From assembly GCA_000091205.1 (NCBI GenBank), contig AP006498.2: 64,000 bases of DNA; one strand, written 5' to 3'. The notes beneath the pieces were generated by a model. That model saw only the letters and a list, made by a program, of their open reading frames with translations. It was not told the origin of the DNA and ran no database searches. Shown here one piece after another: positions 1-62,050 of the stretch (positions are counted from its first letter, which is position 1; each line of letters opens with the position of its first letter). The position numbers and the translations under genes are program-made. This DNA is from Cyanidioschyzon merolae. Taxonomy: Eukaryota.

Positions 1-159
1 CCCCCCATTCCTCGGATCACATTGATTAGGTGATCTCAGTGCGGGAGCATCTATGACATCGGCGTCTTTTATTTCAATGGCGATAGGGTATTCTCCTCTG
101 ACGGTTTGATCTGGGCTCATACGCGTCTGGTATAGCGTCGTTTACTACATACCAAAGCT

Positions 160-3100
160 AATTGGAAATTACCACGGGCGCTTTGCTTTTTCTGGTTTAC
201 TGAACTTTTGCACTGACCAGACGGATTAAATCGCTTCTTTGATATTGGTTTCGAAAAAATCCTCTCTCATTCCGAACGATCCCTGTGCATTGCATTTCTT
301 TTTCTTACTCTCGGCCTTATTGGTCGTTTCACACTCTTATCCTACGCCGGATGCCTGCCGTATGCACCAGCCGTAATCTAGTTATCGCTGGTGCTGGTGC
401 ACTTAGGAAATACAGCAGCCTTGACAATCTACTGAGCGTGGCGGTGGAGGCTTGTTTCATGCAACGCGGAAGCATGGCTATTTATATTTCTTGGAGCCTC
501 CAAGCTGTACTATCAGCCTTCCTGCCTGGTAGTCGCGGTGCTTTGTATTGGAAGACCGCCACGCCAAAATTTATATTCAGATGCAGCATACTTGGTCATG
601 ATCCAACAATCAAATGCGTTCGACTGAGATGCTCAGGTGCGGTTCATCCCTCGCCACTGAAAAGTCACACGGAGGACAGGCCGGTTCGTTCTCGCGGCTC
701 GCACACCTCCCGCCTAATCTAACAGTGTGACCATACGCAAAAACTTCTCTCTTCAACGTTTCCGGTTGGTGGCGATAGTACTTGCTATTCCGTTTGTGTA
801 TATTGTTGTACTAGTTGGCATCTTCTATGTCGTGCGCCCTGGTGACGCATCGCGAAATCTGGCCGTCACCTCACACTACGTGCGTCTTGCCGATCAAAAG
901 AAACGTGTTAATGACCTCTTGTGGAGCGACTGCTGTATCGGGGCCACTTGTTTTTGCGATCGAATCGTATCAAATTGTAGTTTTGGCTTCAATAGCGTTT
1001 CAATCTTCAAGTAAATTTATTCAACTGATTTTCGCCTTTCAAAGCAGAAGCGTCCAATGAGTTTTTCTCCCAAATAAAATTGACTCATGTAAATCAAGGG
1101 GGTGGGGGGTACGGGGTGGCAGATGTGCCCGGATGTCAGAACGAAACGAGACATGCTGCCCAGCGAAGAGGGCCAGGAAAAAAGAAGAAGCAACATTTGG
1201 AGGCCTTAGATCGAAGGCTGCCATGGTGACGTCTGTACGACGAGATGGTGGTGGAATCCTATCTTCTCCAACATATCAATGATCCGTACGACTGATTGTT
1301 GCGAGACGCTATCAGAAAGCGTGTCGGTTCGTACGCCAGGTATGTTTGTACCTTCTCTTTAGGACGTTGGCATTTGGAGAGCGAGCTGCATCCGGAGGTA
1401 ACGCACATCGCAGAAGTGATGTTTCCGGAAGAAATTTTCCAAAAGACTTTCATCAACCACCTGATTGTTTTTAATGGGAAAACATCGAGGATAAATGAGC
1501 GAGTGCATGCCTTTCTCAAAAATTACGCCAAGTACCTCGTCATCGGTGCTGTACACAGGGGTGACGTAGATATTTACGAATACAGGGCAAAGAGGTGCCT
1601 CAGGAATGTGAGGAACCGTAGCATCGCAACCCTCGATTGTTTCATGATACGCGTCGTCTTTGCGCTGTACCCGGGCCTATTTCGCGAAGCGATGCTTGCA
1701 ATCATCGATGGTATGAAGAACGATCGCCAGCATGAACAGGAGATCAGATTCGTCGACAAGAGGACATCACGCCCGAGAAGGAATATTGCTTTTGTTATCC
1801 GCGCGACTATTCTAAAACATCGTTCACGCTTGGGGCTTGTCGACCCTAGAGAAAAACTGTCAGATATGATCAAAAAAGACGAAGAAAGATTTTAGTCCCT
1901 CATCCTGCCCTACTTCATTTTTCCGACCGAAAACTCGAACGCAAGGCTGACATGGAGCTGAGTTTGGAAAAATGACCGACGGGAGAACGGACGTTGAAGA
2001 GCTTCTCCAGATGCGCTTCGTTGTCGTCCGGTTACGCGAGTTCAAGTCACATGTTGTGAATATCGACTCTAGAGTCCTTTACGCCTTCATGAAAGAGTTC
2101 TATCCAGTGCTCGATATAAGCAACAAAGGGGCCACCGGCGAAGACCGGGACACCTACTGGAAGAAGCATTTCGATTCCAAGTGTCCCAAACCGGCCAAAA
2201 AAGGTATTCACGGGGACCATCGATAACGATGATGGATACATATGGGTACATTAGTAGCGGTTGTAAGTACTTCGTCCTATCTCGTCTTCGTTGTCGCCGT
2301 TGCCGATGCACGAACAGAAGAAGATGGGCGATGGAACGTATAATCGCCACGAAAACGACTTTGTCGTCGACCTTAACCCTAGGAACACGAATATCATAAC
2401 AATCGCAATACCCGAGTGTGCGGAAGATGGTACTGAATGTAACGTACGTCAGAGAGACATGCATCTTTTGAGGCTCTCGAGAGCGAGATACTATCGAGAA
2501 TCCTGTATAATGAATGCAAAAAAGAAAATTGCAGCATGGAATGAAGGAATGAAAGAGCATATGGAAGCTATGGGCGAGGTGACTAGCCGCGGAGCGGACT
2601 ATAAAGCTTTTCGGAAATTCATGGAAGTTCGCGTCGCTCATTGGGATGCGCTGTGGAAGGAGTATACAAAGCCCCGGTGGGCTCGTCTGCGAATAAATTT
2701 GTATTGCGGGAACCAGCGGGCGTTCGCCAACTTTTTCAATCAATTGGGTGCCTTGAAATAGGATGACAGTCAGAGGCTCGCAGTAGCGTATGGATCAGGG
2801 CGATGGAAGACCCAAAAGGGACTACTCCAGCTCTGTCGACAAGAACATACAATGTGTGTTAACGGCGTTTCGTCACGATACCTGTCGATGAGTTTCGAAC
2901 GTCCTATACACACCATGAACTGGGTTATACACTTCAGAGAGTGGAGGTAGAAAAGGGCCAGCGGAGCCCTGAGGATATAGAAAAGTACGGACCGCTGATG
3001 GAGGAGCAAATGGAAAGGCGAACGAAAGTCCGAGGGCTACTCGCATTGGTGAGTGCAACTTCCAATGGCAAGTTACGTATGGGGTTTGTGAACAGAGACT

Positions 3101-3317
3101 TTAATGCCGCTATCAAGATACGGAGGTGTGCGATGCTGGAGAACAGACCTCCAGAATAGACAAGAATGATCTTTGTTGGACAATATCCCAAAGTCGGATT
3201 ATATGAGAAAAAGTTTGAGCCAGTAGTAGGTGGCCGGTACAAAAAGACGGGGAGGCGTCTGCACGTTAGTTGGAGACGTCTTGTCTAGTGCGGGTTTCTC
3301 GCCACTACTGTACACTG
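160..3317 (+). mobile_element. Copy A of a TnpB/Fanzor-like element. The left boundary is uncertain and may reach the window start; the right end is at the conserved ...GCCACTACTGTACACTG.
   Basis: Nucleotide and peptide homology to copy B (21440..24635), traced by eye from about 160 to 3317 (about 60-75% identity). It contains a decayed Fanzor-like reading frame. Homology to copy B stops exactly after CACTG at 3317. Confidence 0.55.
1296..3288 (+). pseudogene. Decayed TnpB/Fanzor-like nuclease gene, copy A. Frameshifts and stops split it into ORFs 1296..1895, 1972..2226, 2291..2761 and 2941..3159.
   Basis: RuvC-I-like ENDFVVDLNPRNTNIITIAIPE. RuvC-III signature FVNRDFNAAIKI (D-x-N-A-A-x-N-I). 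A shared tail PVVGGRYKKTGRRLHVSW is followed by TAG at 3286..3288. The pieces lie in different frames, so the gene is not intact. Confidence 0.6.
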
Positions 3318-4034
3318 TTGTCGTTTGACTTAGAACGGCGTTGTTGGTGTCAGGGCTTCGATGCATAATATGTTTACGCTTTCGTGTCTTGTAATCTTCC
3401 GTTTTCGTGCTTTCCACTGCAGGAGTGGTAAAATTGTGCAACTGTAATCCACTTCTGCTTCACAGCCGTCTGGTGCCATTCTATATGATGTATCAGTGTC
3501 ACTTTCTTTTCGGTTTTTTTGAGACAATGTATTCCATCACTGATTCTGATATTTTTTCCTCGTATAAATTCCTGAATGCCTTACACCACCGCTTCGAGAG
3601 TCAAGCAACAGAGCAGACCGTTAACATCCACAAATGTGAAAACAGTCTGACGGAACGCCTCGCAGCTTGACAGCCTCCACGACATCTCCAAGCTTCGATG
3701 CATGTGTATCGCGGATCGACCTGTCTCAAGTGACCAACAGGACCTGCTATTTTCAGCCACGGCTCGATGATGCATCACATCTCGTTTCCATTCTATTGTC
3801 AATCCACAAATTTTGCGATCGCGTGGATCCATGGATGCAACCTCACCCATACATCTACAGGGCTCAGGTTCCATTCATGACCAACGTACCTTACAATATG
3901 CTGTTTGAAGCCTTCTTTGTTATAAATAACATGTTTTCATCACCGCTCGTTCATACATTTCAGACAGTAGGCGTAGCAGCTCATGATGGGGCTCACGTCC
4001 TGGTCGACCGTGGACTCTGCATCAGCTTCGCTGC

Positions 4035-6323
4035 TCAGCAGGCAGCAGCCACAACACTCACACGAGCCTCCTTCAAAATGCGCGCTGCTATCGTCCACAT
4101 GCGATACAACCCTTCTGCGTACGGCATGATACCGACCGTACTGTCTGTGCCGAGCATTGAACCCCATATGGTACGCAGCGCACCTACACGTGCAGGCCAT
4201 AGAACAGCATGCGCGACAACATGAGACGGATACGTTCCGTAGCAGCTCACGAGAATGCCGTCGACAACAAGACGCCCTGAGCGCGTCAGCGGTGCATAGA
4301 GGCCATCACGCGTAACAAGAGTGTCGATCGCGACTACCGGATCCGGGAGATCCGAGGCAACGTCCAGCAGAGCGTCGCCAATGCGGATATCTTCTGCGAA
4401 CGCTGCCTCAATGGCAGAGGTCTCAAGCTCAAGGCTCTTATGTATGCGCTGCTGCTGGTTCCGTAAATGACCTGTCGCAATAGTTATTATACTGCCATCC
4501 AGGACTCTTGAGTGTTCGTGCATCCGATACACCAGATGCTGCCTCGTCAAGCGTAGCTGCTTCCCAGAAAGCGTCTTGATCGCAAGGATCTCCACTACAG
4601 CACCAGGCTCGTTATGCAACCATCCCAGTACAGTATCCTCGACGAGCTGCCCACGTCCATTGACGCCAATCACCACCATACCCGGGCGCAACTCGCTCAT
4701 CAGCACCGTATTGCCTAGACGATCAACCATTACAGAGGCCTCCGCAGGGAAGCATACCGCGGAGCCTGTGCCTACTGGGACCTCTGTTACGTTCGTTGTT
4801 GCTGACATTGTCGCAGAGTACGACGCCGACACCGACACTGCCGGACTTGCTGTAGGCGTTATAGTTGGAGTTGGTGTAGGAGTAGGATACGGCGAAACGA
4901 ATACCTCCGATAGAGAAAAGACATCATTAAGTAACCCGGTGATAGGAACTGACCCATTTGCATAGCCAAAGCCGCCAAATAGAACTGGATCAAATGCCGC
5001 AAACGTCGCGTCATTTGATTGAGAGACCCATATAGTAGAGCCAAATCGACCACCCGGTTTGACTGAACTATTGGTCTCGTTAACGACTCCGTAGAAGCTC
5101 AAACTGTTCGGCATTGCACTACCGTTGATCCACGCCCATTGTCCAAGCTCCGGATCAAATACCCAGAGGTCATTCAAGCATCCGCTGAGGCTAGATGCAG
5201 CGGCCAGCCCGGCGCCACCAAATAGCTGAAGATTACCCAAAGAGTCCACAAAACTGACGCTACCTAACCGACTACCAGGCGTATTCATCGCAGAATACCC
5301 TCCAAAGACGTCGTAAACGCCGAAATTGTTTGAAGTCTTCCCTCCAGTGACATAGACCCAGATACCGGTGCTTATGTTGTACATCCATAGATCGTTGAGG
5401 TTGCCGTACTGCGTCGTGCTGTTCCCGTAGCCCCTACCACCAAACAGCCACAGATTACCATCAAGATCAACCCACGTGGACGCAGCGTGTCGTGCACCGG
5501 GAGCGTTTGAGGAGTTTCCAACACCAGGAGCGCTGTAATTACCGTACTCATTGCCAACTAGGCTACCTCCGACCCAACCCCATTCGGATGTAGTGGTGTT
5601 GAATACCCATAAGTCCGCACGATCACGAAATATGTGATCGGTACCACCAAAGAGCCACAGGTTATTATTCATATCAGTCCAAAAGGCAGCACCATCCCGA
5701 GCACTCGGACTAAAACTGCTGCTGAAGCTTCCTTTTTGTCCGCTAGCGCCAGGCGCGTCCACTGTGTCGTTCCCTGCGATCCAAGTCCAGTTTTCTGTAA
5801 ACGGATCGTACTGCCACAAGTCGTTCAAACGACCAATGTCTCCGTTCTTATCAAGACCGTATCCTCCAAAAAGGTAGAAGATGCCAGTAGATGTCTGCCA
5901 AAACGCGGCGTTTTCCCGAGCACCAGGCATATTAGACGAGTTCGCCTTCCCGAGCGTCCCATAGGTACCAGACTGGTCGGGAACCGATGACCCACCAATC
6001 CACGTCCACTCCAAGGATGATTTATTGAACACCCATAGGTCGTTCAGGTGTCCTATGCTTGCGTTTGCTTTCCCTTCACCACCGAATAAGTAGTGACCGT
6101 TCGGACCCGACCAACTAGCGGCGCCATGCCGCGCGCCTGGCGTGTTGCCCGTTGCTGGAAGACTCTTGTTGCCGTAGATTCCAGACCCGTCGGTACGCTG
6201 ATTGCCCCCTACCCAAGTCCAAGAAACCGTATTCACGGGAGTAGCTACGAGCGTGCGAACAGCAAAGCTCACAAACAGGTAAAGAAAGAAGCAAACAGTA
6301 GGTTTAACTCTGATTATAACCAT
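4035..6323 (-). CDS. Secreted Kelch-repeat beta-propeller protein with a C-terminal Hedgehog/intein-type Hint (Hog) autoprocessing domain.
   Basis: 762-aa ORF. N-terminal hydrophobic signal peptide (MVIIRVKPTVCFFLYLFVSFAV). About six repeats of the Kelch/galactose-oxidase pattern (LFGG...LNDLW...W.W..G). PT-rich linker (PTPTPTPTITPT). Then CFPAEASVMVDRLGNTVLMSELRPGMVVIG...TRQHLVY...LYAPLTRSGRLVVDGILVSCYG, which matches the Hedgehog Hint module (CFPG..V.L..G....DL.PGD.VLA...TAAHL...TxxGTxxVNxVLASCYA). Confidence 0.7.
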   Translation of the reverse strand: MVIIRVKPTVCFFLYLFVSFAVRTLVATPVNTVSWTWVGGNQRTDGSGIYGNKSLPATGNTPGARHGAASWSGPNGHYLFGGEGKANASIGHLNDLWVFNKSSLEWTWIGGSSVPDQSGTYGTLGKANSSNMPGARENAAFWQTSTGIFYLFGGYGLDKNGDIGRLNDLWQYDPFTENWTWIAGNDTVDAPGASGQKGSFSSSFSPSARDGAAFWTDMNNNLWLFGGTDHIFRDRADLWVFNTTTSEWGWVGGSLVGNEYGNYSAPGVGNSSNAPGARHAASTWVDLDGNLWLFGGRGYGNSTTQYGNLNDLWMYNISTGIWVYVTGGKTSNNFGVYDVFGGYSAMNTPGSRLGSVSFVDSLGNLQLFGGAGLAAASSLSGCLNDLWVFDPELGQWAWINGSAMPNSLSFYGVVNETNSSVKPGGRFGSTIWVSQSNDATFAAFDPVLFGGFGYANGSVPITGLLNDVFSLSEVFVSPYPTPTPTPTITPTASPAVSVSASYSATMSATTNVTEVPVGTGSAVCFPAEASVMVDRLGNTVLMSELRPGMVVIGVNGRGQLVEDTVLGWLHNEPGAVVEILAIKTLSGKQLRLTRQHLVYRMHEHSRVLDGSIITIATGHLRNQQQRIHKSLELETSAIEAAFAEDIRIGDALLDVASDLPDPVVAIDTLVTRDGLYAPLTRSGRLVVDGILVSCYGTYPSHVVAHAVLWPARVGALRTIWGSMLGTDSTVGIMPYAEGLYRMWTIAARILKEARVSVVAAAC

Positions 6324-8883
6324 AGGAGAGACTTAGTCGTGTTCCCTAAAACAGCACGCCGGGGAACAGGCTCTTCAAAAAGAGCGACAAAAACTTTAGT
6401 CACTTACCAGCAGCCTTTGTAAAAAACCTAGGCGGGACTCGCCTGAACGCGTATCTCCCGTGCGTAATCGTTGGGTTCCGCCATGTCGCCGCCGCGGCGA
6501 ACGCACACGTGGCAGAATGGTAGTTATGCCCATGTTTTCGTGACATAAAATTTGCCGTGACATCGATGCCCCATTGACGATTTCTAATAGCCCGGCCTCT
6601 CGAGGATATCCAAGGCACTTGCAGGTACTGCTCTTATTTCCGTGTCTTCTACGTACACGGATTTGTAGCGTTTAGGCATTAGCAAACGTTACGCAGCACA
6701 TGCCACCTCCGGCTTCGGAAACGAGACATATTTCTTCCGTCATTGCTGCTTTCTTTTGCTGATGCTGGAGACCTTATCAATGCGATTGCAAATAATTGGT
6801 TGTGTCCTCCGCGCAGGCCATATTAATTACGACCATTCCGGAGAGGAGACTGCGATTAAAGTCTATTCTGTGCCCTATGTTACCGATGGAGTCCGAACAT
6901 CACATTTGTATGATGTTAGATGGATGAATGCAGCAAAATCTTTCTGCGTACGTATGTTTCGACGAAGAACGTGAAAAAAAAACTTTGCCGTCAGGCACCT
7001 ACGCACTGGTGTAGTATGAGCCTCCAAAGTATTCATTTGTATAGAGATAAAAGACAGATCCAACAATCATCCCGCTATCAAGCAGCCTCAAAAGCTTGCT
7101 GCGACTCCGGATGCGCGAATGTCGCTGATACCCTACAGTGAACCAACTACTTCGCCATACAGCTGAGGCCGTTGGCCCGGAGCGTAGCACCCGCTGCGGG
7201 CTTGGGACTCTTCTTCTTTCTAGGACCCAGCAGGGCGCTGATACAGCCTTATTGCCGGCTCTGCGAAACAGTACGCTGGGAAACCACAGCGACCAGGGCG
7301 CCTATGAGACGCATGCCGCCGGTGGTAGTACCAGAAAAGCTGAACTAAAGTATTTTACTCTCAGCTCCCTTGTACGATCAAACCGGCACCGAATATGTGG
7401 GGTTCACGCTGACGCCTATGGCTGGTGGCGACTCGACCCGCTGCTTCTCGGACCACGCACCCCGACCTTCCTCTGGCAAGGACTACGCCTGTGACTGCTG
7501 TCGCCATGTGGCATCGAACTCGAATCCGTGGGCCGGGTCGACGCCCCGTGTTCCCGGTGAAGCGAGCAAGGGTAGAATTCGAAAGCTCACCAAGTGCGAA
7601 CGGGTTCGCCAACACTCGCTCATACAATATTTGAGCAAGAGTGCTGCTTTAGCCAACCTGTTACGCGCAATCGGTCATGTCCAGAATATTTTTTGCCCGT
7701 TGCGCTGCCCAGCCCGGGGCGAGCGCCGTGAATATATATTGCCTCGTGCACGAAAAAATAAACAATGCATACGGATAGGCACATTCTATGGGGCATATTC
7801 CTAGTAGGTGATTATGGGGAAGGTCAGTGAGACGACGGCAAATCCCGTTTGAATCGAGTAGCCAGAGAACGTGAACTTGCGCTTATACCAGACAATCTGC
7901 AGGGGACGGGCCGTCTTGCCCAGCGCATTGTGCGATACTTTCCAGTAATCTGACACCTCAGAAATAGCTCTAGTACAGCTGGGAATTTGATTCAGGGCAG
8001 GACCGTTGACCCTGAGCTCCATACAAGTGCGCCGAATCCAGAATCCAGCCCAAGCGCCACTCGCACACAAGATAGATCCCAATTGTTCAGAATTTTTACG
8101 CATACGTCCTGGTGGTACTCGGGTGTGCGCAGCCTCTGGATTCGTTGTCCATCCCGTAGTTGCCGTTACCTTTCTCTCTAGAATTTGATAGTGTGCGCGT
8201 CATGAGACCTCGCCCGCCGCTCTGTGTACTAACCTTCAAGCCCACGTCTTGGGCGTTACCGCTGCCAAGGAAATGAACAAAATACACGGAGAAGCATGTA
8301 CCATAAGCTTGTGTGAATTCTAGTTTCGTCCCTGGTACACCAGACTTCTAGTCGGGCCTTTTTCATTTTCGATGGTAAACGCAGTCGCCTAACACCTCGA
8401 TGGGCCGTTTATGGAGTAAAATATTTCGCAAGGCACCTCATACGTCACATCTGCTGCTGATGTGTGACCAAGAACGGGGAAACAATAGCTGAACACCCTT
8501 CCAAGTTGGTGCTGCGTCCAACTGCCCGCGTTTCCAACTACCTGCGCTTCAGTAGCCCAAGACTACTGCATCGCATGCAGACAGTAAGATTCCCGCTGAA
8601 TTTGCGGAGCACGGCATCACCTCGCGCTCAAGAACCCAAAGCCGCGAATGACGCCCCCGGTAGACAGCCGAGCCAGCGGGATGCGCAAGCACCGCCACGA
8701 AAAACCAGGGCACAACCACCATACGAGCAATGCTCTCCGGGTGCATGCCGATCCCGAGTCGATTTCGAAAACGTTTCTAACGCTGTACAGAAAAACGTTA
8801 TGCACGGACGTATGCGTATGACGGAAACAGACAGTACCGCTGTAACTCCCAGAACGAAGCATTGAGGATCACGCAAAGCTGCG

Positions 8884-10425
8884 CTACGCTTTGTTCGAGG
8901 CATGTAATCGACGCCAGCGCTCATGGGATTCGTTGACGGCAAAATCAGCGTCCGTAAATCGAGCTCGGAATCGTTCATCATCTTTCTCTCGTCGGCGACT
9001 CGAGGTGCGGTTCTTCTGCGAATCCACAGCTCTGATGCGCTGCTGCTGCTGTTGGGCGATTCGCTCTTGAATGCGCAAACGACGCCATTCCTCATACTCG
9101 GCGGGATTTATGGCCGATCGAGTCTTCCGATACAAGGAAAGTTCAATCAAAAACCCGTGCAGATGAGGAATTAAAGCATCAGATCCGAGGAGCGATTCCA
9201 GTCCCAGAGCGGAGAGTTCGTCTCGAGTCACAAACCGATAGTGGTCATAGATCGCCACGACCGAATCCTGCTGCGAAACCGTCGATTCCGCGAGTTCCTC
9301 TGTCAAATGTTCCAGATAGGCACACCATTTCGGAGCCGGGCCAAGTGCTGGTATAAAATAGCAATGAACAGGTCGATCTGAACAAGCTGCCATGACGAGT
9401 CCGGCGCCGCCGAATGAGGTCTCCAGCTGCTCGATATCAGCAGGAGTCTCGAAACTCAGAAAGGGTGCGTCCTCTAATCGGAGGTCACCGAAAATTTTCA
9501 CGCATTTTCTGTCCGCTGCAACTAGCCAGGAACGATTCGGCTCGTGTGCGCCAACGTGGATGCTGACCGACTGCACGGGGAGGCCAAAGCCGAGCGACCG
9601 TACCCCAAGTGGTCGTTCTGATCGAATATCATACAGCAGTAGTGTCCCGTCATCCAGCCCAACACCAAGATGTAGACCCTGAAACACGGAACAGGTCACA
9701 GTGCTGTTCCCGAGTTCTGTTGCATGCTTGGCAGGATTGAAGCAGCCCGCTCGCCGATGCGGTTCTTCGCGCGGATCGAACACTTCATAAAACCCCGAGT
9801 CACCGCCAGCTCCGAGCAAGTTAAATTCTTTGTTGAGCTGCAGAGTCTCGTTACTCGCGGAAAATGTTTCTAGGGGCGGCAAGAACCGACCCTCGTCAAG
9901 GTTCAAGCGATACACGCGAGACCCAGCCGCGGCAACGTACAAGTCACAGTTGCTCGGGTGATAGGCCAAGGCTCGCCCAGCATGCGGAATACGCACCTTC
10001 TCGTGCAAGCCGCCCTGCGAGTGCAACTCAATAAATCGATCGTTTCGTAGAATAGCCAGCTTTCGCCAGTCGTCTTCAAGAACGAGAAGATCCACAGGTG
10101 CAGCGTCAAAGTGGCGCACAAACTTGAGACCCAGCTCTGCAAACTCGAAAACTCGCAGCTGCGGTGGGTATGTCCCAACTGCAACCAAGTGCGTACCGGA
10201 AGGTGTCGAGCGAACTCGCACACACGATCCAGGAAACTCAAGGTCCTGCAGCAGTTGGATCTGTGCAGCGTGCGCGCCTGTCCTTGCACGAACGTCTCGA
10301 ACGTTTCGGCGCGACGCTTGCTTCGAGCCTTTGGTGACTTGCTCAAGCGGCGTTTCTGCAGGCGGAGAGGTAATGTGGTACACCGCAGCACCAGGAACCG
10401 CTTGGCGCTCAAAGGTGCGCACCAT
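8884..10425 (-). CDS. NOL10: Nucleolar protein 10 (NOL10/Enp2) homolog: WD40 plus a NUC153-like domain.
   Basis: 513-aa ORF that can be aligned along its length to remembered human NOL10, for example: RIPHAGRALAYHPSNCDLYVAAAGSRVYRLNLDEGRFLPPL; LLLYDIRSERPLGV; YFIPALGPAPKWCAYLEHLTEEL; YRFVTRDELSALGLESLLGS; HGFLIELSLYRK; NPAEYEEWR. Confidence 0.8.
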   Translation of the reverse strand: MVRTFERQAVPGAAVYHITSPPAETPLEQVTKGSKQASRRNVRDVRARTGAHAAQIQLLQDLEFPGSCVRVRSTPSGTHLVAVGTYPPQLRVFEFAELGLKFVRHFDAAPVDLLVLEDDWRKLAILRNDRFIELHSQGGLHEKVRIPHAGRALAYHPSNCDLYVAAAGSRVYRLNLDEGRFLPPLETFSASNETLQLNKEFNLLGAGGDSGFYEVFDPREEPHRRAGCFNPAKHATELGNSTVTCSVFQGLHLGVGLDDGTLLLYDIRSERPLGVRSLGFGLPVQSVSIHVGAHEPNRSWLVAADRKCVKIFGDLRLEDAPFLSFETPADIEQLETSFGGAGLVMAACSDRPVHCYFIPALGPAPKWCAYLEHLTEELAESTVSQQDSVVAIYDHYRFVTRDELSALGLESLLGSDALIPHLHGFLIELSLYRKTRSAINPAEYEEWRRLRIQERIAQQQQQRIRAVDSQKNRTSSRRREKDDERFRARFTDADFAVNESHERWRRLHASNKA

Positions 10426-21439: not shown

Positions 21440-24400
21440 CCGGCGGCGGCGGCAGCGGGTGCAATTCGTTTTGTTTTCGATGACAGAAGGCGTTTCCATG
21501 GATCAGGGGATCCCAGATTGCCGGATGGACGGGTATTGGCATTCGGGAATGCGTCCAGGATGCTGCAGCCTATCTCCAAGTTCCATTGCTTGTACTTTCT
21601 CTCGGAAATACTGGTTGTTCTGTGGGTTCTATCGTGAACAGAGTGCCTGCGTCGCTGCTCCCGCCGTAGCGTCTATATCGCTGGAGTGGATGCAGCACGG
21701 AGATAGAGCTGTGCTTTGTCGTACCACTGAGGGTATCTGTTCGAGGAACGCTTCACCTGAAACGGTGTCGGGATACATAGTGAGTTTGGGAGCCAGAAAT
21801 CTGTCCAGACAAGCCTAGTGCCTGCGACAGCTCGAATTGATATTCTGGGCGTCCACTGCGACCCGGGCGACGCCCAGATGCAGCGGAACTGCCCCGAGTC
21901 TCAGAGTCAACTGCGTTGCGTACGAGTTGCTCAGATCTCGCTAGAGCACCGGGCACGGAGGAGAGCATGGAGCACGAGCCTGGCAGACTCGCGCGGCTTG
22001 CAGGATCTGCCACCTATACGGTAAACTGTCGACAATATGGAGACATTTTCCCGCTTTTAACGTTTATCTCAGAGGACGAAAGAAATCGTTGTATCGTTGC
22101 TAGTTGGTGAATCGTTTTTGCTCTTTGTTTGCATAGCGCGGTCGATACGCGCACCTCCATATCTGGTAGTCACGAGATGCGCCTTGCATGTGGCAGTTGA
22201 AGGGAAACGCGAGACTGACCATTTTTTGACGTTTTGTTTTACTGTACAAGTCGCATTTGCGTTGAGCGCATAGCAAATTATAGTGTTTCATCTCAGTTGT
22301 GTTTTTACCTCCAAGCAAGTCTATTCAAGTGATTTTTTTGCGGTTTATAACTCAAGCGTTCAATGAGCGTTTTTTTTCAAAAATTAAAAAAAAAAAAGCA
22401 AGTATGGAGAAGGATGGTGAGGATCCTGGAGGCCTGGTATCACCGCTTGGCAGAAAAAAAAGCGAAAAACAGCGCCAAACAAAGAGGAACAGGAGAAGAC
22501 GAAAGAGCAGACGGTGGAGGCGTGACGTCATAAGCTGCGAGAAAGATGACAGTGCGACGAGATGGTAGTGAAAGCCTGCCTCCTTGGTCATATCAAGGAA
22601 CCGTACAGGCAAAAGTTGCTAGAGCCCATCAGAAATCATGTCAATTCGTAGTCCGCGAGCATTACAAAAGCCTTCTTCACGACTGAGGTACTTGGAAAAA
22701 TAGATGCATCGCGACGTTACATACATCGAAGCAGTCGAGGATACGGAAAAAGCTTTGAGCAAGGCCTTCATCCACCACTTCACGATTGGCACGGAGACAA
22801 TGTCGGGGAGCAATGAGCGAGTTCACGTCCTCCGGGAAAATTACGCCAAATATCGCTTCAACGGTACTCGATACAGGTGTGATGCGGATATTTGCACCTA
22901 CGGGGCGATCAAGTACCTCACGAGCCTGAAGAACCAAAGGACCATCAACCTCGAACATTTCATGGTGCGCTCCATCTTTACACTCCACCAGGGGCCTGTC
23001 TGGAAAAGAGAGCTAGGCTATTATAGATGGCATCACGAACGATCCCCATCATGAAGATGAGATCGAATTTGTCGACATGAAGACATCACGCATGAGAAAG
23101 AGTGAGGCTTCTGCGATCCGTACGGCAGCACCGGAGCACTGTTCGGTTCTGGGGCTGGCGAATCCAGCAGAAAACTGATCAAATGTTAAAAAAGATGTAG
23201 AAAGATGTTATCCCCGTATCAAGCGGTATTTCGTGTTCCTAAATCGAGAACTCGACCGTAAGGCCGAAAACAGCTGAATATGGAAAAAATGAAGAGTCGG
23301 AGAGACGCAAGGCTGTCCTGATGGGGAAGCGCTTCAATATCGTCACGTTGTGCAATATCAAGTCACATCTTGTGACAATCGACTCCAGAATCCTTTACGG
23401 CATCATGAAGGAGATCAGTCCATAGTTCGATGTAAGGAAGATATGGTTCACCTGCGAAAACCGAGAGACGCACCGGAAGAGTATCTTCGACTTCAAACGT
23501 CTCAAACGAGGAAGGAAAAGCCATCCATGGGGACGATCGAAAGCGATGGGGTAGCCATGTATGTACACTATCGGCGGTTGGAGGCGGATCGTTCTGTTCT
23601 GTCCTCGGGTTCGCCCTCTGCGAAATATGAACATTAGAAGGAGGTGGATCCCGCGACGCAGAAAGTGCATGAGAACGACTTTGTCTTTGGTGCGAACCCC
23701 GGGGGTACGAATATCATAACGATCGCAGTACCCAAGCGTGCGGAAGATGGTGTTGACGGCGATTTACGTCAGAGAGACATGCGTGTTTCGAGGTTCTCGA
23801 GAGCAATATACTATCGAGAATCCGGTAAAATGAATGCGAGGAAGAAAATTGAGACACGGAATGCAGGAGTGAAAGAGCACCTGGATGCTTTGAGCGAGGT
23901 GACGAGCCGCGGAGCGGACTGGCAAGCTTTTCGGGAGTTCATGGAAGTTCGCGTTGCTCGCTGGGAGGCGCTGTGGGAGGAGTGTACAAAGCCCCGATGG
24001 GCTCGTTTGCGTATGAATTTGTAGTATGGGACACAGCGCGCGTTCGCGAACTTTTTGAATGAGTTGAGAGCCCTGAAGGAGGATGAAAATCAGAGGCTCG
24101 TATTAGCGTACGGAGCAGAGCGATGGACATCGAGAAAAGGATGTATGCCAGCTCCAACGACAACAACGTACAAGGAGTGTGCGCGGCGTTTCATTACGAT
24201 ACATGTAGATGAGTTCCGAACGTCCTATACACACCATGAACTGGGGTGTACACTTCAGAGGGTCGAGATGGAAAAGTGCCAGCGGAGCCCTGAGGATATC
24301 AAAGAGTACGGAGTGCTGACGGAAGAGCAAATGGAAATGAAGGCGAAAGTTCGAGGGTTACTTGCACTAGTGAGTACAACTACCAACGGCAAGAAACGGA

Positions 24401-24635
24401 TGGAGTTTGTGAATCGTGAATTTAATGCTGCTATCAATAAAAGATGTGCGGTGATCGAGAAAAGACCTCCAGAGTTGACACGAAGGAATTTTGTTGGACA
24501 ACCTCTTGAGGTGGGATTATATGAGAAAAAGTTGAAACCAGTAGTAGGTGGCCGGTCCAAAAAGACTGAGAGGCATCTGTACATCAGTTCGAGACGTTTT
24601 ATCTAGTGCGGGCCGTTCGCCTCCCCTGTGCACTG
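21440..24635 (+). mobile_element. Copy B of the TnpB/Fanzor-like element, about 3.2 kb and the most complete copy. The right end is at CACTG, 24631..24635.
   Basis: Collinear homology to copy A across the whole length: a non-coding left part (21440..22400), a basic NLS-like ORF, then N-terminal, middle and RuvC regions. The 29 nt after the stop codon are conserved with copies A, C and D. Confidence 0.6.
22400..24606 (+). pseudogene. Decayed TnpB/Fanzor-like RuvC nuclease gene, copy B. The RuvC half (23644..24606) is in one frame broken by a single in-frame TAG at 24022; there are upstream frameshifts near 22568/22704 and 23054.
   Basis: Basic N-terminus MEKDGEDPGG...GRKKSEKQRQTKRNRRRRKSRRWRR. 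RuvC-I-like [23 protein letters not shown], in which the catalytic Asp is replaced. ...HVDEFRTSYTHHELGC... and the RuvC-III signature EFVNREFNAAINK. The tail KLKPVVGGRSKKTERHLYISSRRFI is followed by TAG at 24604..24606. Confidence 0.65.
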
Positions 24636-59743: not shown

Positions 59744-59960
59744 ACGTAAATCGTCTGTTGCATACTATGCTCAAGATCAGCAAGAAAATAGTGGTTCAAC
59801 GCACAGCGCGTTCGTGCTCCTGCACGCTCTCCAAGTCGAGCGCTCTGAACGAGGCGGCACCTCCGGCTCGCTCGTGATGCGCGTTAACGTTCGAGCGGCG
59901 GTTTCGTGCACGCCCGACACCGCACCATCAACGCCGCTCTAAAGTCGAACGACTTCGGGC

Positions 59961-61100
59961 GTGTACAGTAGTGGCGGCAACCGTGCCCTAGACTTAAAGT
60001 CTCCAACTGAAGTGCAGACGCTTCCTAGGCTTTCTGGACCGGGCACTCACTACTGCTTCCAACTTGTTCTCATATAGTTCGAATTTGAGAGATTGTCCAA
60101 TAAAGTTCATTCTTGTCCGCTCTGGAGGTCTCGTCTCCAGCGCTGCACATCTGCTTATATTGATAGCGGCATTAAAGTCGCGATTCACGAATTCCATGCG
60201 TTTCGTGCCATCATTGGTTGTACTTACCAATGCAAGGAGTCCACGAACTTTCGCCCTCCTTTCCATTTGCTCCTCCGTCAGCGGTCCATACTTTTTTATA
60301 TCTTCAGGGCTCCGCTGTCACTTTTCCATCTCCACTCTCTGAAGTGTACACCCCAGTTCATGCTGTGTATAGGACGTTCGGAACACATCTATCGGTATCG
60401 TGACGAAACGCCGTGCACACTCTTTGTACGTTCTTGTCGTTGGAGCTGGTGTACACCCTTTTTGGGTCTTCCATCGCCCTGCTCCGTACGCGACTACGAG
60501 CGTCTGACTGTCATCCTCCTTCAAGGCGCTCAACTCATTGAAAAAGTTCGCGAACGCCCGCTGTTTCCCACAGTATAGATTCATGCGCAGACGAGCCGGC
60601 CGGGGCTTTGTATATTCTTCCCACAGCGCATCCCAATGCGCAAACCGATCTTCTATGAATTTCCGAAAAGCTGTAAAGCCCGCTCCTCGGCTCGTCACCT
60701 CGCTCATAGCTTCCAGGTGATCTTTCATTCCTGAATTCCACGTACAAATTTTCTTCCTCGCATTCATTATACCGGATCCTCGATAGCATCTTGCTCTCGA
60801 GAACCTCAAAAAGACGCATATCTTTCTGACGTAAGTTACCATCAGTCCCATCTTCCGCACACTTTGGTACAGCGATGGTTATGATATTCGTATTCCCAGG
60901 GTCCACGCCAACGACAAAGTCGTTATCCTGCACCTCCTGCATCGCAGGATCCCCATCATTCTCATCTACATCCTTCGCCGAGCCGTCTACAAGGTTGTAC
61001 TTTTCCACTTCCTGCGTCACAGAATCCGCGTCCTTCTCGTCTATATTCTTCGCCACGGGCGAAGCCGAAGACGGACCAGGAGACGGGCCCAACGGCGCTG
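59961..61100 (-). pseudogene. TnpB/Fanzor-like RuvC fragment, copy C. It is 5'-truncated just upstream of RuvC-I and lies head-to-head with copy D.
   Basis: Minus-strand ORFs 60535..61092, 60318..60860 and 59994..60266: ...[26 protein letters not shown] (RuvC-I with Asp) ... VDVFRTSYTQHELGCTLQRVEMEK ... RGLLALVSTTNDGTKRMEFVNRDFNAAINISRCAALE (RuvC-III). The stop at 59994 is followed 31 nt later by the conserved right end (+ strand gtgtacagtagtggc at 59961..59975). Confidence 0.65.
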
Positions 61101-62050
61101 GAGGCGCAGAAGAACGCGTTTGCCGTTGGCATGGATCCCGGGAACACCCACATCGTTACCATCGCAGCACCCAAGCGTGAGGAAGATGGCTCTGACGGCA
61201 ACTTACGTCAGAAAGACATAAGTCTGTTGAAGCTCTCATGAGCGAGATATTACCGAGAATCCGGTATAATGAATGCAAGGAATAAAAGTGAGACATCGAA
61301 TTCAGGAGTGAAGGGAATTTGGAAGCGATCAGCCGGGTGACGAGCCGCGGAGCCGACATGGAAGCGTTTCGAGAGGCCATGAGCATTCACGCAGCTCATG
61401 ACGAAAGCCTTTGGAAAGAATGCACAAAGTTCAGGTGGGCTCGTCTGCGTATGAACCTGTACTGTTGGAAACAGCGAGCATACGCCAGCTTTTTCAATCA
61501 GTTGAGCGCCCTCAAGGAGGACATGAGCCAAAGGCTCGTAGTAGCATACGGGGCAGGTCGATGGATGCCCCAAAAAGGGTGTACACCAGCTCCAACGACA
61601 AGAACGTACAAGGAGTGCGCACATGGTTATGTCGAAATACCTTTAGATGAGTTTCGAACATCTTCTACACACCACGAGCTGTGTTGTACACTTCAGAGGG
61701 TCGCGATGGAGAAAAGCCAGCGGCTCGCTGACGGAAATGCAAATGGCAAGGAGGGCGAAACTTCGAGGACTACTCGCATTGGTTACTACAACTACTGATG
61801 GCAAGAAACGAATAGAGTTCGTGAATTGAGACTTTAACGCCGCCATCAGTGTAAGGAGGTGTGCAGTACTGGAAAGAAGACCCCCGGAGTTGGCGAGAGC
61901 CAACTTTGCGAGGCAACCTCCCAAAATGGAGTGATACCAGAAGAAGTTGAAACCAGTAGTAGGTGGCCAGTTGCTGAACGCCAGCACAGTCGTCTGCACA
62001 TCGATGGGTAGACATTCGGTCTACGGCGGACGGTGTGAGAAGCGCCACTC
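61100..62050 (+). pseudogene. TnpB/Fanzor-like RuvC fragment, copy D, on the plus strand and heavily decayed. It abuts copy C head-to-head.
   Basis: NAFAVGMDPGNTHIVTIAAPKREEDGSDGNLRQKD..., then ORF 61319..61798 (RWARLRMNLYCWKQRAYASFFNQLSALKED...DEFRTSSTHHELCCTLQRV), then RGLLALVTTTTDGKKRIEFVN.DFNAAISV ... KLKPVVGG. It ends with gccactcttgtacactg at 62034..62050, which matches the family right end. Confidence 0.6.

What the first reader, a model, noticed from the sequence alone, without database searches (positions are those of the whole stretch)
4035..6323. Secreted Kelch beta-propeller fused to a Hedgehog/intein-type Hint autoprocessing domain
The ORF has a signal peptide, six Kelch-like blades, a PT-rich linker, and a complete Hint module. 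The Hint module begins with the nucleophilic Cys-Phe (CFPAEASVMVDRLGNTV...PGMVVIG...TRQHLVY...LYAPLTRSGRLVVDGILVSCYG). It aligns motif-for-motif with the Hedgehog C-terminal autoprocessing domain.

Hint domains outside metazoan Hedgehog are patchily distributed in protists, with diverse N-terminal cargo. A Kelch propeller as the released cargo is an uncommon architecture. The protein would be predicted to self-cleave at G|CF, releasing a roughly 480-aa propeller. The propeller may carry a lipid-like adduct. The tail after SCY is short, so a sterol-recognition region is doubtful.
Basis: partly seen in the sequence, partly recalled or inferred. Interest (0 to 1): 0.6.

Follow-up and report, generated by a model that had tools for sequence, protein, structure and literature searches.

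The report
Red-algal subtelomeric Kelch–Hog autoprocessing protein
This is an intact gene for a secreted six-bladed Kelch propeller joined by a Thr/Pro-rich stalk to a complete Hedgehog-type self-cleaving (Hog) domain, and it belongs to a published multi-copy chromosome-end gene family of hot-spring red algae, so it is a real but already-described kind of protein.

Summary
Window 4035-6323 (-) is one 762-aa ORF. It has an N-terminal signal-like segment, six Kelch blades, a T/P/S/A-rich linker and a Hedgehog-type Hint module (Pfam PF01079, E=3.9e-32). The predicted Hint fold matches Drosophila Hedgehog (TM 0.88).

Three details in the finding are wrong.
- The scissile bond is Val523|Cys524, not Gly|Cys.
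- The tail after SCY is 67 aa, not short. It carries both conserved helices of the sterol/adduct-recognition region (AH..P.R; GIMPY).
- The architecture is not novel.

The window is nuclear DNA of a cyanidiophycean red alga and begins at a telomere repeat. Kelch+Hint ("K+H") genes are a published subtelomeric family: 11 copies in Cyanidioschyzon merolae and 3 in Cyanidiococcus. They are reported as expressed mainly in wall-less haploid cells, and their function is unknown.

This copy is 60% identical to a Cyanidiococcus member and 50% to C. merolae members. Its modules have discordant affinities (Kelch nearer Cyanidiococcus, Hog nearer C. merolae). The general-base position (Asp46 in Hedgehog) is His570, which is the commoner state among the nearest homologues.

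Most likely mechanism: self-cleavage in the ER, possibly with sterol esterification, giving a lipid-tethered glycosylated propeller. Only the sequence and predicted-fold features are shown; cleavage and adduct are inferred. Verdict: new member of a known kind, low to moderate interest.

The parts
1..9 (.). One telomere repeat unit (CCCCCCATT, the reverse complement of AATGGGGGG). It marks the window start as a chromosome end and the gene as subtelomeric.
   Evidence: Searches show a single unit at position 1. Metagenome contig L001 is 98.2% identical to window 1-7205 and runs on into GGGGAATGGGGGGAATGGGGGGAATGGG. That this unit is the C. merolae-type telomere repeat rests on my own knowledge.
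4035..6323 (-). Complete single-exon ORF of 762 aa plus stop (stop codon 4035-4037): the Kelch-linker-Hog precursor. It is transcribed towards the telomere.
   Evidence: A 99%-identical protein, P0001, is found on two metagenome contigs.
6243..6323 (-). Residues 1-27: signal-peptide-like N-terminus (MVIIRVKPTVCFFLYLFVSFAVRTLVA|TP). Cleavage is predicted between about residues 21 and 27.
   Evidence: Hydropathy scan: 15-residue windows reach 2.09 and the top 19-residue windows of the whole protein lie at residues 1-12. All five named homologues (P0002, P0021, P0026, P0032, P0033) have a comparable hydrophobic N-terminus before the first blade. No dedicated signal-peptide predictor was available.
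4899..6236 (-). Residues 30-475: six-bladed Kelch beta-propeller (blades start at 35, 106, 179, 248, 322, 396). It carries 15 N-x-S/T sequons.
   Evidence: Pfam Kelch families. Blade motifs W-x-W..G and LNDLW. AF2 pLDDT mostly >90. Foldseek matches to six-bladed Kelch domains. Sequons: 15 observed against 6.9 expected, P about 0.002.
4755..4898 (-). Residues 476-523: disordered Thr/Pro/Ser/Ala-rich linker (YPTPTPTPTITPTASPAVSVSASYSATMSATTNVTEVPVGTGSAV), ending in Val523, the residue that would receive any adduct.
   Evidence: Composition. pLDDT <50. It corresponds to the T/P/A-rich linker described for the family.
4233..4754 (-). Residues 524-697: Hint module. Key residues: Cys524-Phe525 (nucleophile, nt 4749-4754); His570 at the Hedgehog Asp46 position (nt 4614-4616); Thr593..His596 TxxH (nt 4536-4547); Ser693-Cys694-Tyr695 (Hedgehog C143 equivalent; SCYG spans nt 4236-4247). 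A variable Gln-rich loop at about residues 604-635 is disordered.
   Evidence: AF2 Hog model with core pLDDT >90. Foldseek 6TYY and 1AT0 at TM 0.88.
4038..4232 (-). Residues 698-762: SRR/ARR-like helical tail. Helix-1 motif SHVVAHAVLWPARV (residues 700-713; His705, Pro710, Arg712). Helix-2 motif GIMPYAEGLY (residues 731-740; Tyr735). Clade-specific hydrophobic end ..VSVVAAAC, with a terminal Cys762.
   Evidence: The Pfam profile matches to residue 744. Invariant H191, P196, R198 and near-invariant G217, Y221, L225 in alignment A1. Column counts. Predicted helices. Comparison with the functional mapping in human SHH (PMC7242414).

Best explanation
The gene encodes a member of the cyanidiophycean 'K+Hog' (Kelch+Hint) subtelomeric family. 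It sits about 4 kb from a telomere in a red alga of the Cyanidioschyzon/Cyanidiococcus group.

Proposed mechanism:
1. The precursor enters the ER through its N-terminal signal sequence, and the propeller is N-glycosylated.
2. The C-terminal Hog domain folds like Hedgehog HhC.
3. Cys524, assisted by Thr593/His596, makes an N-to-S acyl shift at the Val523-Cys524 bond. Cys694, the Hedgehog C143 equivalent, may form a branched thioester.
4. A nucleophile resolves the thioester. It is bound by the helical adduct-recognition tail (residues 698-762) and activated by His570. The most likely nucleophile is the 3-beta-OH of a membrane sterol.
5. This releases a roughly 496-residue fragment (residues ~28-523: six-bladed Kelch propeller plus a mucin-like Thr/Pro stalk). 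If sterol is used, the fragment is esterified at Val523 and stays tethered to the outer face of the membrane.
6. The Hog fragment is a single-turnover enzyme and is discarded.

Shown here: the ORF, domain architecture, catalytic residues, predicted folds, subtelomeric position, family membership and conservation relative to the flanks.

Inferred: secretion, cleavage, the nature of the adduct, and surface tethering.

My probabilities: member of the K+Hog family about 0.95; self-cleavage about 0.85; adduct is a sterol about 0.4-0.45.
For: Architecture and fold:
- Pfam Hint at 112 bits, plus Kelch families.
- phmmer to human SHH 7E2I, E=1.5e-10, aligned over residues 515-714.
- AF2 and Foldseek: Hedgehog Hint TM 0.88; Kelch propeller.

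Catalytic set, counted over the aligned stretches that cover each column, out of 271 stretches in all:
- C1: Cys in 132 of 132.
- F2: Phe in 131 of 132.
- T of TxxH: Thr 112, Ser 43.
- H of TxxH: His in 155 of 156.
- SCY Cys: Cys in 150 of 163.
The query has the majority residue at each of these positions.

General-base position: His570. Among homologues this column holds His in 97 stretches and Asp in 55. An Asp46-to-His Hedgehog mutant still autoprocesses (PMC12054796), and 6TYY, the D46H mutant, is the top structural match.

SRR-like tail:
- His705, Pro710 and Arg712 correspond to human SHH H374, P379 and R381, and Tyr735 to Y435. H374, R381 and Y435 are required for cellular cholesterolysis; P379 is absolutely conserved, but its mutation lowered protein level rather than the processed fraction (PMC7242414).
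- Alignment support.

Family membership:
- 60% identity to Cyanidiococcus P0002 and 50% to C. merolae 'similar to hedgehog protein' P0026/P0032 over 97-100% of the length.
- Literature describes K+H genes with a T/P/A linker, signal peptides and subtelomeric location.
- A telomere repeat lies at window position 1 and at the end of the syntenic contig L001.

Selection: the gene is 99.7% identical to the L001 copy (7 differences in 2289 nt). The 7.2-kb alignment as a whole is 98.2% identical, which puts the flanks at about 97.6%. There are no amino-acid changes in the Hog domain.

Secretory route: N-glycosylation sequons are enriched in the propeller, 15 against 6.9 expected.

Sterol availability: C. 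merolae is predicted to make sterols via cycloartenol (PMC2817430).
Against: - No biochemical evidence exists for cleavage or for any adduct in this protein or, as far as the papers read here state, in any cyanidiophycean Hog. Their function is called unknown.
- The -1 residue is beta-branched Val, where 60 of the 119 homologue stretches that cover this column have Gly. This might slow thioester formation (inference).
- The second SRR helix reads M-P-Y instead of H-W-Y. In human SHH, alanine replacement of H433 or W434 drastically reduced cholesterolysis in cells. Sterol recognition is therefore not assured, and the region is better called an adduct-recognition region.
- The signal peptide was judged by hydropathy and homology only.
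- The SRR helices in the model have only moderate confidence (pLDDT 54-85).
- dN/dS against the near-identical copy is uninformative: 5 non-synonymous and 2 synonymous differences.
Confidence: 0.8

Rival explanations
1. Self-cleavage by plain hydrolysis. The Hog domain serves only as a single-use protease that releases a soluble, glycosylated Kelch propeller into the medium or cell surface layer, with no lipid adduct.
For: The Hint catalytic set alone suffices for thioester formation, and Hedgehog mutants lacking the SRR still undergo proteolysis (PMC7242414). The HWY motif of SRR helix 2 is changed to MPY. Burglin 2008 left the adduct open for non-Hedgehog Hog domains and therefore named the region ARR.
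Against: The 65-residue tail is strongly conserved, including residues needed for cholesterolysis in SHH (His705, Arg712, Tyr735). It showed no amino-acid change against the near-identical copy. A tail with no role in adduct choice would not be expected to keep these motifs from red algae to animals.
Confidence: 0.25
2. Self-cleavage with transfer to a non-sterol nucleophile, such as a glycolipid, another lipid alcohol or a matrix polymer. The propeller would be anchored covalently to something other than a sterol.
For: Helix 2 deviates from the Hedgehog HWY motif. The clade also has its own C-terminal extension ending ..AAC. His at the general-base position is reported, from my memory of the D46H study, to broaden substrate tolerance in Hedgehog; the mutant itself is documented.
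Against: No positive evidence for any particular alternative. MPY or HPY at helix 2 and His at position 46 are widespread among Hog homologues, including proteins named Hedgehog in tunicates, so they are not special to this clade.
Confidence: 0.12
3. The Hog domain is catalytically inert, or the gene is a decaying subtelomeric pseudogene, and the protein stays as an uncleaved fusion.
For: Subtelomeres are rich in decaying sequence: a degenerate repeat element lies between the gene and the telomere. Val at position -1 is unusual.
Against: The 762-codon ORF is intact. Every catalytic position is kept. The gene is about 8-fold less diverged than its flanks between two strains. Related Hog genes are reported as transcribed and detected in proteomes.
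Confidence: 0.05
4. An intein or bacterial-intein-like element that splices or cleaves at both ends.
For: The fold is shared with inteins and BIL domains (Foldseek TM about 0.7-0.8).
Against: The best matches, by sequence and by structure, are Hedgehog Hint. There is no C-extein: the protein ends 67 residues after SCY. Motif J is S-C-Y-G, as in Hedgehog, rather than a terminal His-Asn plus a +1 nucleophile.
Confidence: 0.01

Closest known systems
K+H / K+Hog subtelomeric proteins of Cyanidiales: C. merolae 10D 'similar to hedgehog protein' (P0026, P0032) and Cyanidiococcus yangmingshanensis Hint-domain proteins (P0002, P0021). Described by Cho et al. 2023 (PMC9812998) and in Plant Cell 2026 (PMC13353863).
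   Same: Same order of parts: signal sequence, six-blade Kelch, T/P/A-rich linker, Hog with ..AAC terminus. Same subtelomeric position. 50-60% identity over the full length.
   Different: It comes from a different, apparently unsequenced relative: its NOL10 is 75% identical to the Cyanidiococcus protein, and exact matches occur only in metagenomes. Its modules are mosaic. The Kelch is 68-69% identical to Cyanidiococcus P0002 but 40-42% to C. merolae. The Hog is 72-74% identical to C. merolae but 55% to Cyanidiococcus.
Metazoan Hedgehog C-terminal autoprocessing domain (HhC = Hint + SRR): Drosophila Hh (1AT0, 6TYY) and human SHH (7E2I)
   Same: Cys-Phe start, TxxH, the S-C-Y Cys143 equivalent, the Hint fold (TM 0.88), and the SRR helix-1 H/P/R and helix-2 Tyr.
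   Different: No HhN signalling domain; the cargo is a Kelch propeller. His replaces Asp46. Val replaces Gly at -1. MPY replaces HWY. The helix 1-helix 2 loop is short. There is a clade-specific C-terminal helix ending in Cys.
Other non-Hedgehog Hog proteins (Burglin 2008, PMC2362128): nematode warthog, groundhog and quahog; choanoflagellate Hoglet; fungal GIN1; red-algal and moss Hogs
   Same: The same logic: a secreted or otherwise unrelated N-terminal cargo fused to a Hog domain. Cargo diversity was also seen here: AIG1 GTPase-Hog, reprolysin-Hog, tandem Hog.
   Different: A Kelch cargo was not seen among the non-cyanidiophycean Hog proteins sampled. Unlike the multicellular red-algal and moss Hogs described by Burglin, where the motif-J Cys is Ser, Thr or Asp, this protein keeps the Cys.
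Bacterial secreted Kelch-repeat proteins (many Bacteroidota with a T9SS sorting domain, PF18962)
   Same: The propeller shares the same long blade consensus (WTW..G...G.YGT.G.....N.PG.R.....W.D..GNLWLFGG.G.......LNDLW). Identity is 35-46% over the propeller. These are the best non-cyanidiophycean hits.
   Different: The bacterial proteins usually carry two propellers and bacterial sorting or adhesin domains. They have no Hog domain.
K+TFF (Kelch + trefoil) sibling family of Cyanidiales
   Same: Same Kelch module, linker and subtelomeric duplication.
   Different: The C-terminal module is a trefoil domain instead of Hog. The family is reported to be expressed mainly in walled diploid cells, whereas Hog genes are mostly haploid-phase.

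Membership tests
Hog-domain proteins (Hint + SRR/ARR; Pfam PF01079) | Significant match to the Hint/Hog profile over its full length | tested here: met
   112 bits against a gathering score of 29.7, profile positions 11-209 of 213, residues 522-744.
Hog-domain proteins (Hint + SRR/ARR; Pfam PF01079) | Nucleophilic Cys followed by Phe at the start of the Hint module | tested here: met
   Cys524-Phe525. The column holds Cys in 132 of 132 and Phe in 131 of 132 of the homologue stretches that reach it.
Hog-domain proteins (Hint + SRR/ARR; Pfam PF01079) | TxxH motif (Hedgehog T69/H72) | tested here: met
   Thr593-Arg-Gln-His596. The His is invariant in alignment A1.
Hog-domain proteins (Hint + SRR/ARR; Pfam PF01079) | Motif J S-C-Y (Hedgehog C143) | tested here: met
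   Ser693-Cys694-Tyr695, invariant in A1.
Hog-domain proteins (Hint + SRR/ARR; Pfam PF01079) | Hint fold | tested here: met
   AF2 core pLDDT >90. Foldseek 6TYY and 1AT0 at TM 0.88, rmsd 2.5-2.6 A. This is a predicted model, not an experimental structure.
Hog-domain proteins (Hint + SRR/ARR; Pfam PF01079) | C-terminal adduct/sterol-recognition region with two conserved helices (Burglin motifs K and L) | tested here: met
   AH..(L)P.R at residues 704-712 and GIMPYAxxLY at residues 731-740. Helices are predicted. Assigning these two motifs to Burglin's K and L is my own reading.
Hog-domain proteins (Hint + SRR/ARR; Pfam PF01079) | Autocatalytic cleavage in front of Cys1 | not testable with these tools
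   Needs expression and a cleavage assay.
Bona fide Hedgehog (Hh) | N-terminal HhN/'Hedge' signalling domain (PF01085) | tested here: not met
   No HH_signal match; the N-terminal part is Kelch. A true Hedgehog among the hits does show PF01085 (P0175).
Bona fide Hedgehog (Hh) | Asp46 general base | tested here: not met
   His570 occupies the column. His is found in 97 and Asp in 55 homologue stretches. D46H Hedgehog remains active.
Bona fide Hedgehog (Hh) | SRR helix-2 H-W-Y motif needed for cholesterolysis in cells | tested here: inconclusive
   The motif reads M-P-Y, so only the Tyr is kept.
Bona fide Hedgehog (Hh) | Cholesterol esterified to the C-terminus of the released fragment | not testable with these tools
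   Needs mass spectrometry or sterol labelling.
Cyanidiales K+H (K+Hog) subtelomeric family | Kelch propeller + Thr/Pro/Ala-rich linker + Hint in one secreted protein | tested here: met
   Family description.
Cyanidiales K+H (K+Hog) subtelomeric family | Full-length homology to named members | tested here: met
   60% identity at 98% coverage to Cyanidiococcus P0002. 50% identity at 97% coverage to C. merolae P0026 and P0032.
Cyanidiales K+H (K+Hog) subtelomeric family | Subtelomeric location | tested here: met
   The gene ends 4,034 nt from a telomere unit at window position 1. The syntenic contig L001 ends in (AATGGGGGG)n.
Cyanidiales K+H (K+Hog) subtelomeric family | Host is a cyanidiophycean red alga | tested here: met
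   The neighbouring NOL10 is 75% identical to the Cyanidiococcus yangmingshanensis protein. The next named relatives are fungi at about 40%.
Kelch beta-propeller | Six or seven four-stranded blades with Kelch motifs | tested here: met
   Six blades. High-confidence propeller. Matches to six-bladed Kelch structures.
N-acetylneuraminate epimerase NanM / galactose oxidase (names attached to homologues by automatic annotation) | Profile match above the family threshold | tested here: not met
   PF24996 NANM scores 36.6 bits, below its cut-off of 45. The only Cys in the propeller (C382) is Tyr in the 99%-identical copy, so a conserved Tyr-Cys cofactor of the galactose-oxidase type is unlikely. That cofactor requirement is from my own knowledge.
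Inteins / bacterial intein-like domains | C-terminal splice junction (terminal Asn/Gln plus a +1 nucleophile on a C-extein) | tested here: not met
   No C-extein. The Hedgehog-type SCYG motif is followed by the ARR helices and then the stop codon.

The most novel reading that the evidence does not exclude
The K+Hog proteins are sterol-esterified at the residue before Cys1. This would be protein sterylation outside animals. They would form a lipid-tethered, heavily glycosylated propeller coat on the naked haploid (gamete-phase) cells of acidophilic red algae. Diversity in this coat would come from subtelomeric shuffling of Kelch and Hog modules across the low-complexity linker, in the manner of a variable surface-protein family. 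The Kelch module itself would have been acquired from bacteria.
Probability: 0.15. Interest if true: 0.75.

Novelty: new member of a known kind. Interest (0 to 1): 0.25.

Why it matters
The protein is one more copy of a described family, so its discovery value is small.

The family remains biochemically untested. Its Hog domain keeps almost every residue known to matter for Hedgehog cholesterolysis, including most of the sterol-recognition region. One host species, C. merolae, is described in the literature as genetically tractable. These proteins are therefore a practical place to ask two open questions:
- Does protein sterylation exist outside animals?
- What do ancestral Hog domains attach to their cargo?

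The analysis here adds three details for such a study:
- His is the natural general base.
- Val is the -1 residue.
- The terminal ..AAC is conserved within the clade.

The discordant Kelch and Hog affinities also illustrate module exchange or homogenisation at chromosome ends.

Tried and rejected
1. Exact look-up of the protein found nothing. Only a 99% copy exists, in two metagenome-derived contigs. The exact Memo-like neighbour is also not on record. The organism could therefore be placed only by NOL10 identity.

2. I first thought His at the Hedgehog Asp46 position was a special feature. I rejected this because His is the commoner state among the nearest Hog homologues (97 His, 55 Asp) and occurs in proteins named Hedgehog.

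3. I searched the window for further family members. tblastn finds only this copy.

4. The full-length AF2 run modelled the Hog part poorly (pLDDT <50 for much of residues 475-762) because that alignment was shallow there. The separate Hog-only run, with 30 diverse Hog sequences, gave a usable model.

5. An enzymatic assignment of the propeller (NanM or galactose oxidase, as in automatic annotations) was rejected, because the profile score is below threshold and the single Cys is not conserved.

6. dN/dS against the near-identical copy was tried. With 5 non-synonymous and 2 synonymous differences it says nothing. Only the gene-versus-flank contrast is informative.

7. The TnpB/Fanzor reading of the repeat next to the gene could not be confirmed. 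Pfam, NCBIfam and PDB sequence searches all returned nothing.

8. Active-site geometry in the model could not be measured, because model coordinates are not exposed to the scripting tool (one search lists the files available).


Full report
**Observation**

Window 4035-6323 on the minus strand is a single 762-codon ORF starting with ATG. Pfam gives a strong Hint/Hog match: PF01079, E=3.9e-32, 112 bits against a gathering score of 29.7, residues 522-744, profile positions 11-209 of 213. It also gives several significant Kelch families over residues ~54-450.

A sequence search of PDB chains finds human Sonic hedgehog (7E2I, E=1.5e-10, aligned over residues 515-714) and Drosophila Hedgehog.

By motif the N-terminal part has six blades, starting at residues 35, 106, 179, 248, 322 and 396. 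It is preceded by a basic-then-hydrophobic N-terminus. It is followed by a 45-residue stretch with 11 Thr, 7 Pro, 7 Ser and 6 Ala.

- An AlphaFold model of the whole protein gives a propeller for residues 30-475, mostly at pLDDT >90, and a disordered linker.
- Foldseek matches that model to six-bladed Kelch domains.
- A separate model of residues 515-762, built on 30 diverse Hog sequences, has mean pLDDT 80.8 with the core above 90.
- Its best structural matches are the two Drosophila Hedgehog Hint structures (TM 0.88, rmsd 2.5-2.6 A), ahead of BIL domains and inteins.

First, the residue before the nucleophilic Cys is Val (..GTGSAV|CFPAE), not Gly. Among homologue stretches that reach this position, Gly is the commonest residue (60 stretches). 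The 11 with Val match in number the cyanidiophycean sequences in the set.

Second, the tail after S-C-Y is not short. It is 67 residues long.
- The Pfam profile, which includes the start of the sterol-recognition region, matches almost to its end.
- In an alignment with diverse Hog domains, including clusters named Hedgehog, the invariant columns include His705, Pro710 and Arg712 of the motif SHVVAHAVLWPARV. Near-invariant columns include Gly731, Tyr735 and Leu739 of GIMPYAEGLY.
- The model places helices over protein residues 701-707, 709-723 and 733-761.
- In human SHH the corresponding H374, R381 and Y435 are required for cholesterolysis in cells, and P379 is absolutely conserved (PMC7242414).
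- The deviation is that the Hedgehog H-W-Y motif reads M-P-Y here. The neutral term 'adduct-recognition region' (Burglin 2008) is therefore the safer name.

Third, the architecture is not new (see the next section).

**What and where it is**

The other genes of the window are ordinary eukaryotic nuclear genes: NOL10, CIAPIN1, mitochondrial carrier, a kinase with ankyrin repeats, Memo and SPX.

The best full-length relatives of the protein are:
- a 99% copy from a metagenome;
- Cyanidiococcus yangmingshanensis proteins at 60% and 46% identity;
- Cyanidioschyzon merolae proteins annotated 'similar to hedgehog protein' at 50%.

The neighbouring NOL10 is 75% identical to the Cyanidiococcus protein, and exact matches occur only in metagenome assemblies. 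The host is therefore a cyanidiophycean red alga related to, but distinct from, the sequenced species.

The window begins with CCCCCCATT, the reverse complement of AATGGGGGG. A metagenome contig 98.2% identical to window 1-7205 continues into GGGGAATGGGGGGAATGGGGGGAATGGG. The gene therefore lies 4 kb from a chromosome end and is transcribed towards it.

Published work describes exactly this family.
- Cho et al. 2023 report that the most prevalent subtelomeric duplicated genes of Cyanidiales encode a Kelch domain fused to a trefoil or a Hint domain through a Thr/Pro/Ala-rich linker. They count 11 K+H genes in C. merolae and three in Cyanidiococcus.
- A 2026 Plant Cell paper classifies them as non-Hedgehog Hog proteins of unknown function. 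It reports that most Hog genes are expressed predominantly in the wall-less haploid phase.

**Active-site anatomy**

I aligned 271 stretches from the best representatives of a library-wide search. That search found 2,285 proteins at E<=0.001. In the alignment the query carries the majority residue at every catalytic column:
- Cys524 and Phe525;
- Thr593 and His596 (TxxH);
- Ser693, Cys694 and Tyr695 (the equivalent of Hedgehog C143).

Hedgehog C143 was recently shown to form a branched thioester intermediate (PMC12054796).

The column of the Hedgehog general base Asp46 holds His570. I first took this for a peculiarity. However, His occupies this column in 97 stretches against 55 with Asp, including stretches from proteins in clusters named Hedgehog. 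The Asp46-to-His Hedgehog mutant still autoprocesses, and it is the top structural match (6TYY). His570 is therefore compatible with a general-base role.

Unlike the multicellular red-algal and moss Hogs listed by Burglin, where the motif-J Cys is replaced, this protein keeps it.

**Evidence that the gene is functional**
- The ORF is intact.
- Against the near-identical metagenome copy it shows 7 differences in 2,289 nt (99.7% identity). The flanks differ by about 2.4%.
- All five amino-acid replacements are in the propeller and none in the Hog domain. The counts are too small for a dN/dS statement.
- N-glycosylation sequons are enriched in the propeller: 15 observed against 6.9 expected from shuffles, P about 0.002. 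They are absent from the Hog domain in this protein and in five homologues. This fits a secretory cargo.
- The one propeller Cys (C382) is Tyr in the sister copy, so the released fragment has no conserved Cys.

**Module history**

| Comparison | Kelch identity | Hog identity |
|---|---|---|
| Window vs Cyanidiococcus P0002 | 68-69% | 55% |
| Window vs C. merolae members | 40-42% | 72-74% |
| Cyanidiococcus P0002 vs P0021 (same species) | 49% | 88% |

The two modules thus have discordant histories, as expected if Hog modules are exchanged or homogenised among subtelomeres across the low-complexity linker. This is an inference from identity values, not a tested phylogeny.

Among ten longer non-cyanidiophycean Hog proteins sampled, the cargoes were AIG1 GTPase, reprolysin, HhN or none recognised, never Kelch. 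The best non-cyanidiophycean relatives of the propeller are bacterial secreted Kelch proteins at 35-46% identity, many with a type IX secretion sorting domain. This raises, but does not test, a bacterial origin for the Kelch module.

**Mechanism proposed**
1. The signal sequence takes the precursor into the ER, where the propeller is glycosylated.
2. The Hog domain performs an N-to-S acyl shift at Val523-Cys524.
3. The thioester is resolved by a nucleophile held by the helical tail and activated by His570.
4. This frees a fragment of about 496 residues: propeller plus stalk.

If the nucleophile is a sterol, the fragment stays tethered to the membrane by its C-terminus. C. merolae is predicted to make sterols via cycloartenol (PMC2817430). 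Together with the reported haploid-phase expression, tethering would suggest a surface-coat or recognition role on naked cells.

Shown here: architecture, residues, predicted folds, genomic position, family membership and relative conservation. Inferred: secretion, cleavage, adduct and location.

My estimates: family membership 0.95, self-cleavage 0.85, sterol adduct 0.4-0.45. Rivals are hydrolytic release (0.25), a non-sterol adduct (0.12), an inactive domain (0.05) and intein-type splicing (0.01).

**Verdict**

The finding is correct in substance. It describes a member of a published gene family, not a new architecture. Novelty: new member of a known kind. Interest is low to moderate. The residual value is that the family is still biochemically uncharacterised and retains nearly the full Hedgehog cholesterolysis apparatus.

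Noticed in passing
window 1158-3317 (+), 22474-24635 (+), 59923-60930 (-), 61113-61971 (+): A dispersed repeat family with four copies in the window, 71-82% nucleotide identity, coinciding with low-GC patches. One copy lies between the telomere and the K+Hog gene. The conceptual translation shows TnpB/Fanzor-like motifs (VVDLNPRNTNIITIAI ... VDEFRTSYTHHELG ... VNRDFNAAIKI). The two copies whose reading frames were examined (1158-3317 and 22474-24635) are broken by stops or frameshifts. Pfam, NCBIfam and PDB sequence searches give no hit. Bao & Jurka 2013 describe about 150 degenerate copies of a ~3-kb Fanzor1 element (CMe-1A) in C. merolae, which is a plausible relative.
   Followed up: partly
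window 1-9; locus L001 7195-7222: The window starts at a telomere junction. A single CCCCCCATT unit lies at position 1. The 98.2%-identical metagenome contig L001 runs on into (AATGGGGGG)n. The K+Hog gene is the intact gene closest to the chromosome end.
   Followed up: yes
window 4899-6236 (-) versus 4038-4754 (-): The two modules of the gene have discordant affinities. The Kelch is 68-69% identical to Cyanidiococcus P0002 and 40-42% to C. merolae. The Hog is 72-74% identical to C. merolae and 55% to Cyanidiococcus. Two Cyanidiococcus paralogues share 88% in Hog but only 49% in Kelch. This suggests module exchange or homogenisation at subtelomeres.
   Followed up: partly
window 4899-6236 (-): Outside Cyanidiophyceae, the nearest relatives of the propeller among the 120 best hits are bacterial secreted Kelch proteins (Bacteroidota with a T9SS tail, and some Pseudomonadota) at 35-46% identity. 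No other eukaryotic proteins appear among them. A possible horizontal origin of the Kelch module was not tested by phylogeny.
   Followed up: no
window 4038-4085 (-), residues 747-762: All twelve cyanidiophycean Hog sequences examined end in a hydrophobic stretch terminating in ..A-C (VVAAAC, MIAAAC, VISAAC, AIAVAC, VVGAAC). This C-terminal Cys is absent from the other Hog domains aligned, and I have no explanation for it.
   Followed up: no
window 4419-4514 (-), residues ~604-635: A variable, Gln-rich, disordered insertion sits in the Hint module (RNQQQRIHK here; longer poly-Q in the C. merolae and Cyanidiococcus copies). It is at the same place where human SHH has its Gly/Ser-rich insertion.
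   Followed up: no
window 8884-10425 (-) and loci L003-L005: The host organism appears only in metagenome or read-archive assemblies. NOL10 is found exactly on 17 contigs from JGI and Logan. The best named relative is Cyanidiococcus yangmingshanensis at 75% identity. The window may therefore come from a cyanidiophycean lineage without a reference genome in the collections searched.
   Followed up: partly
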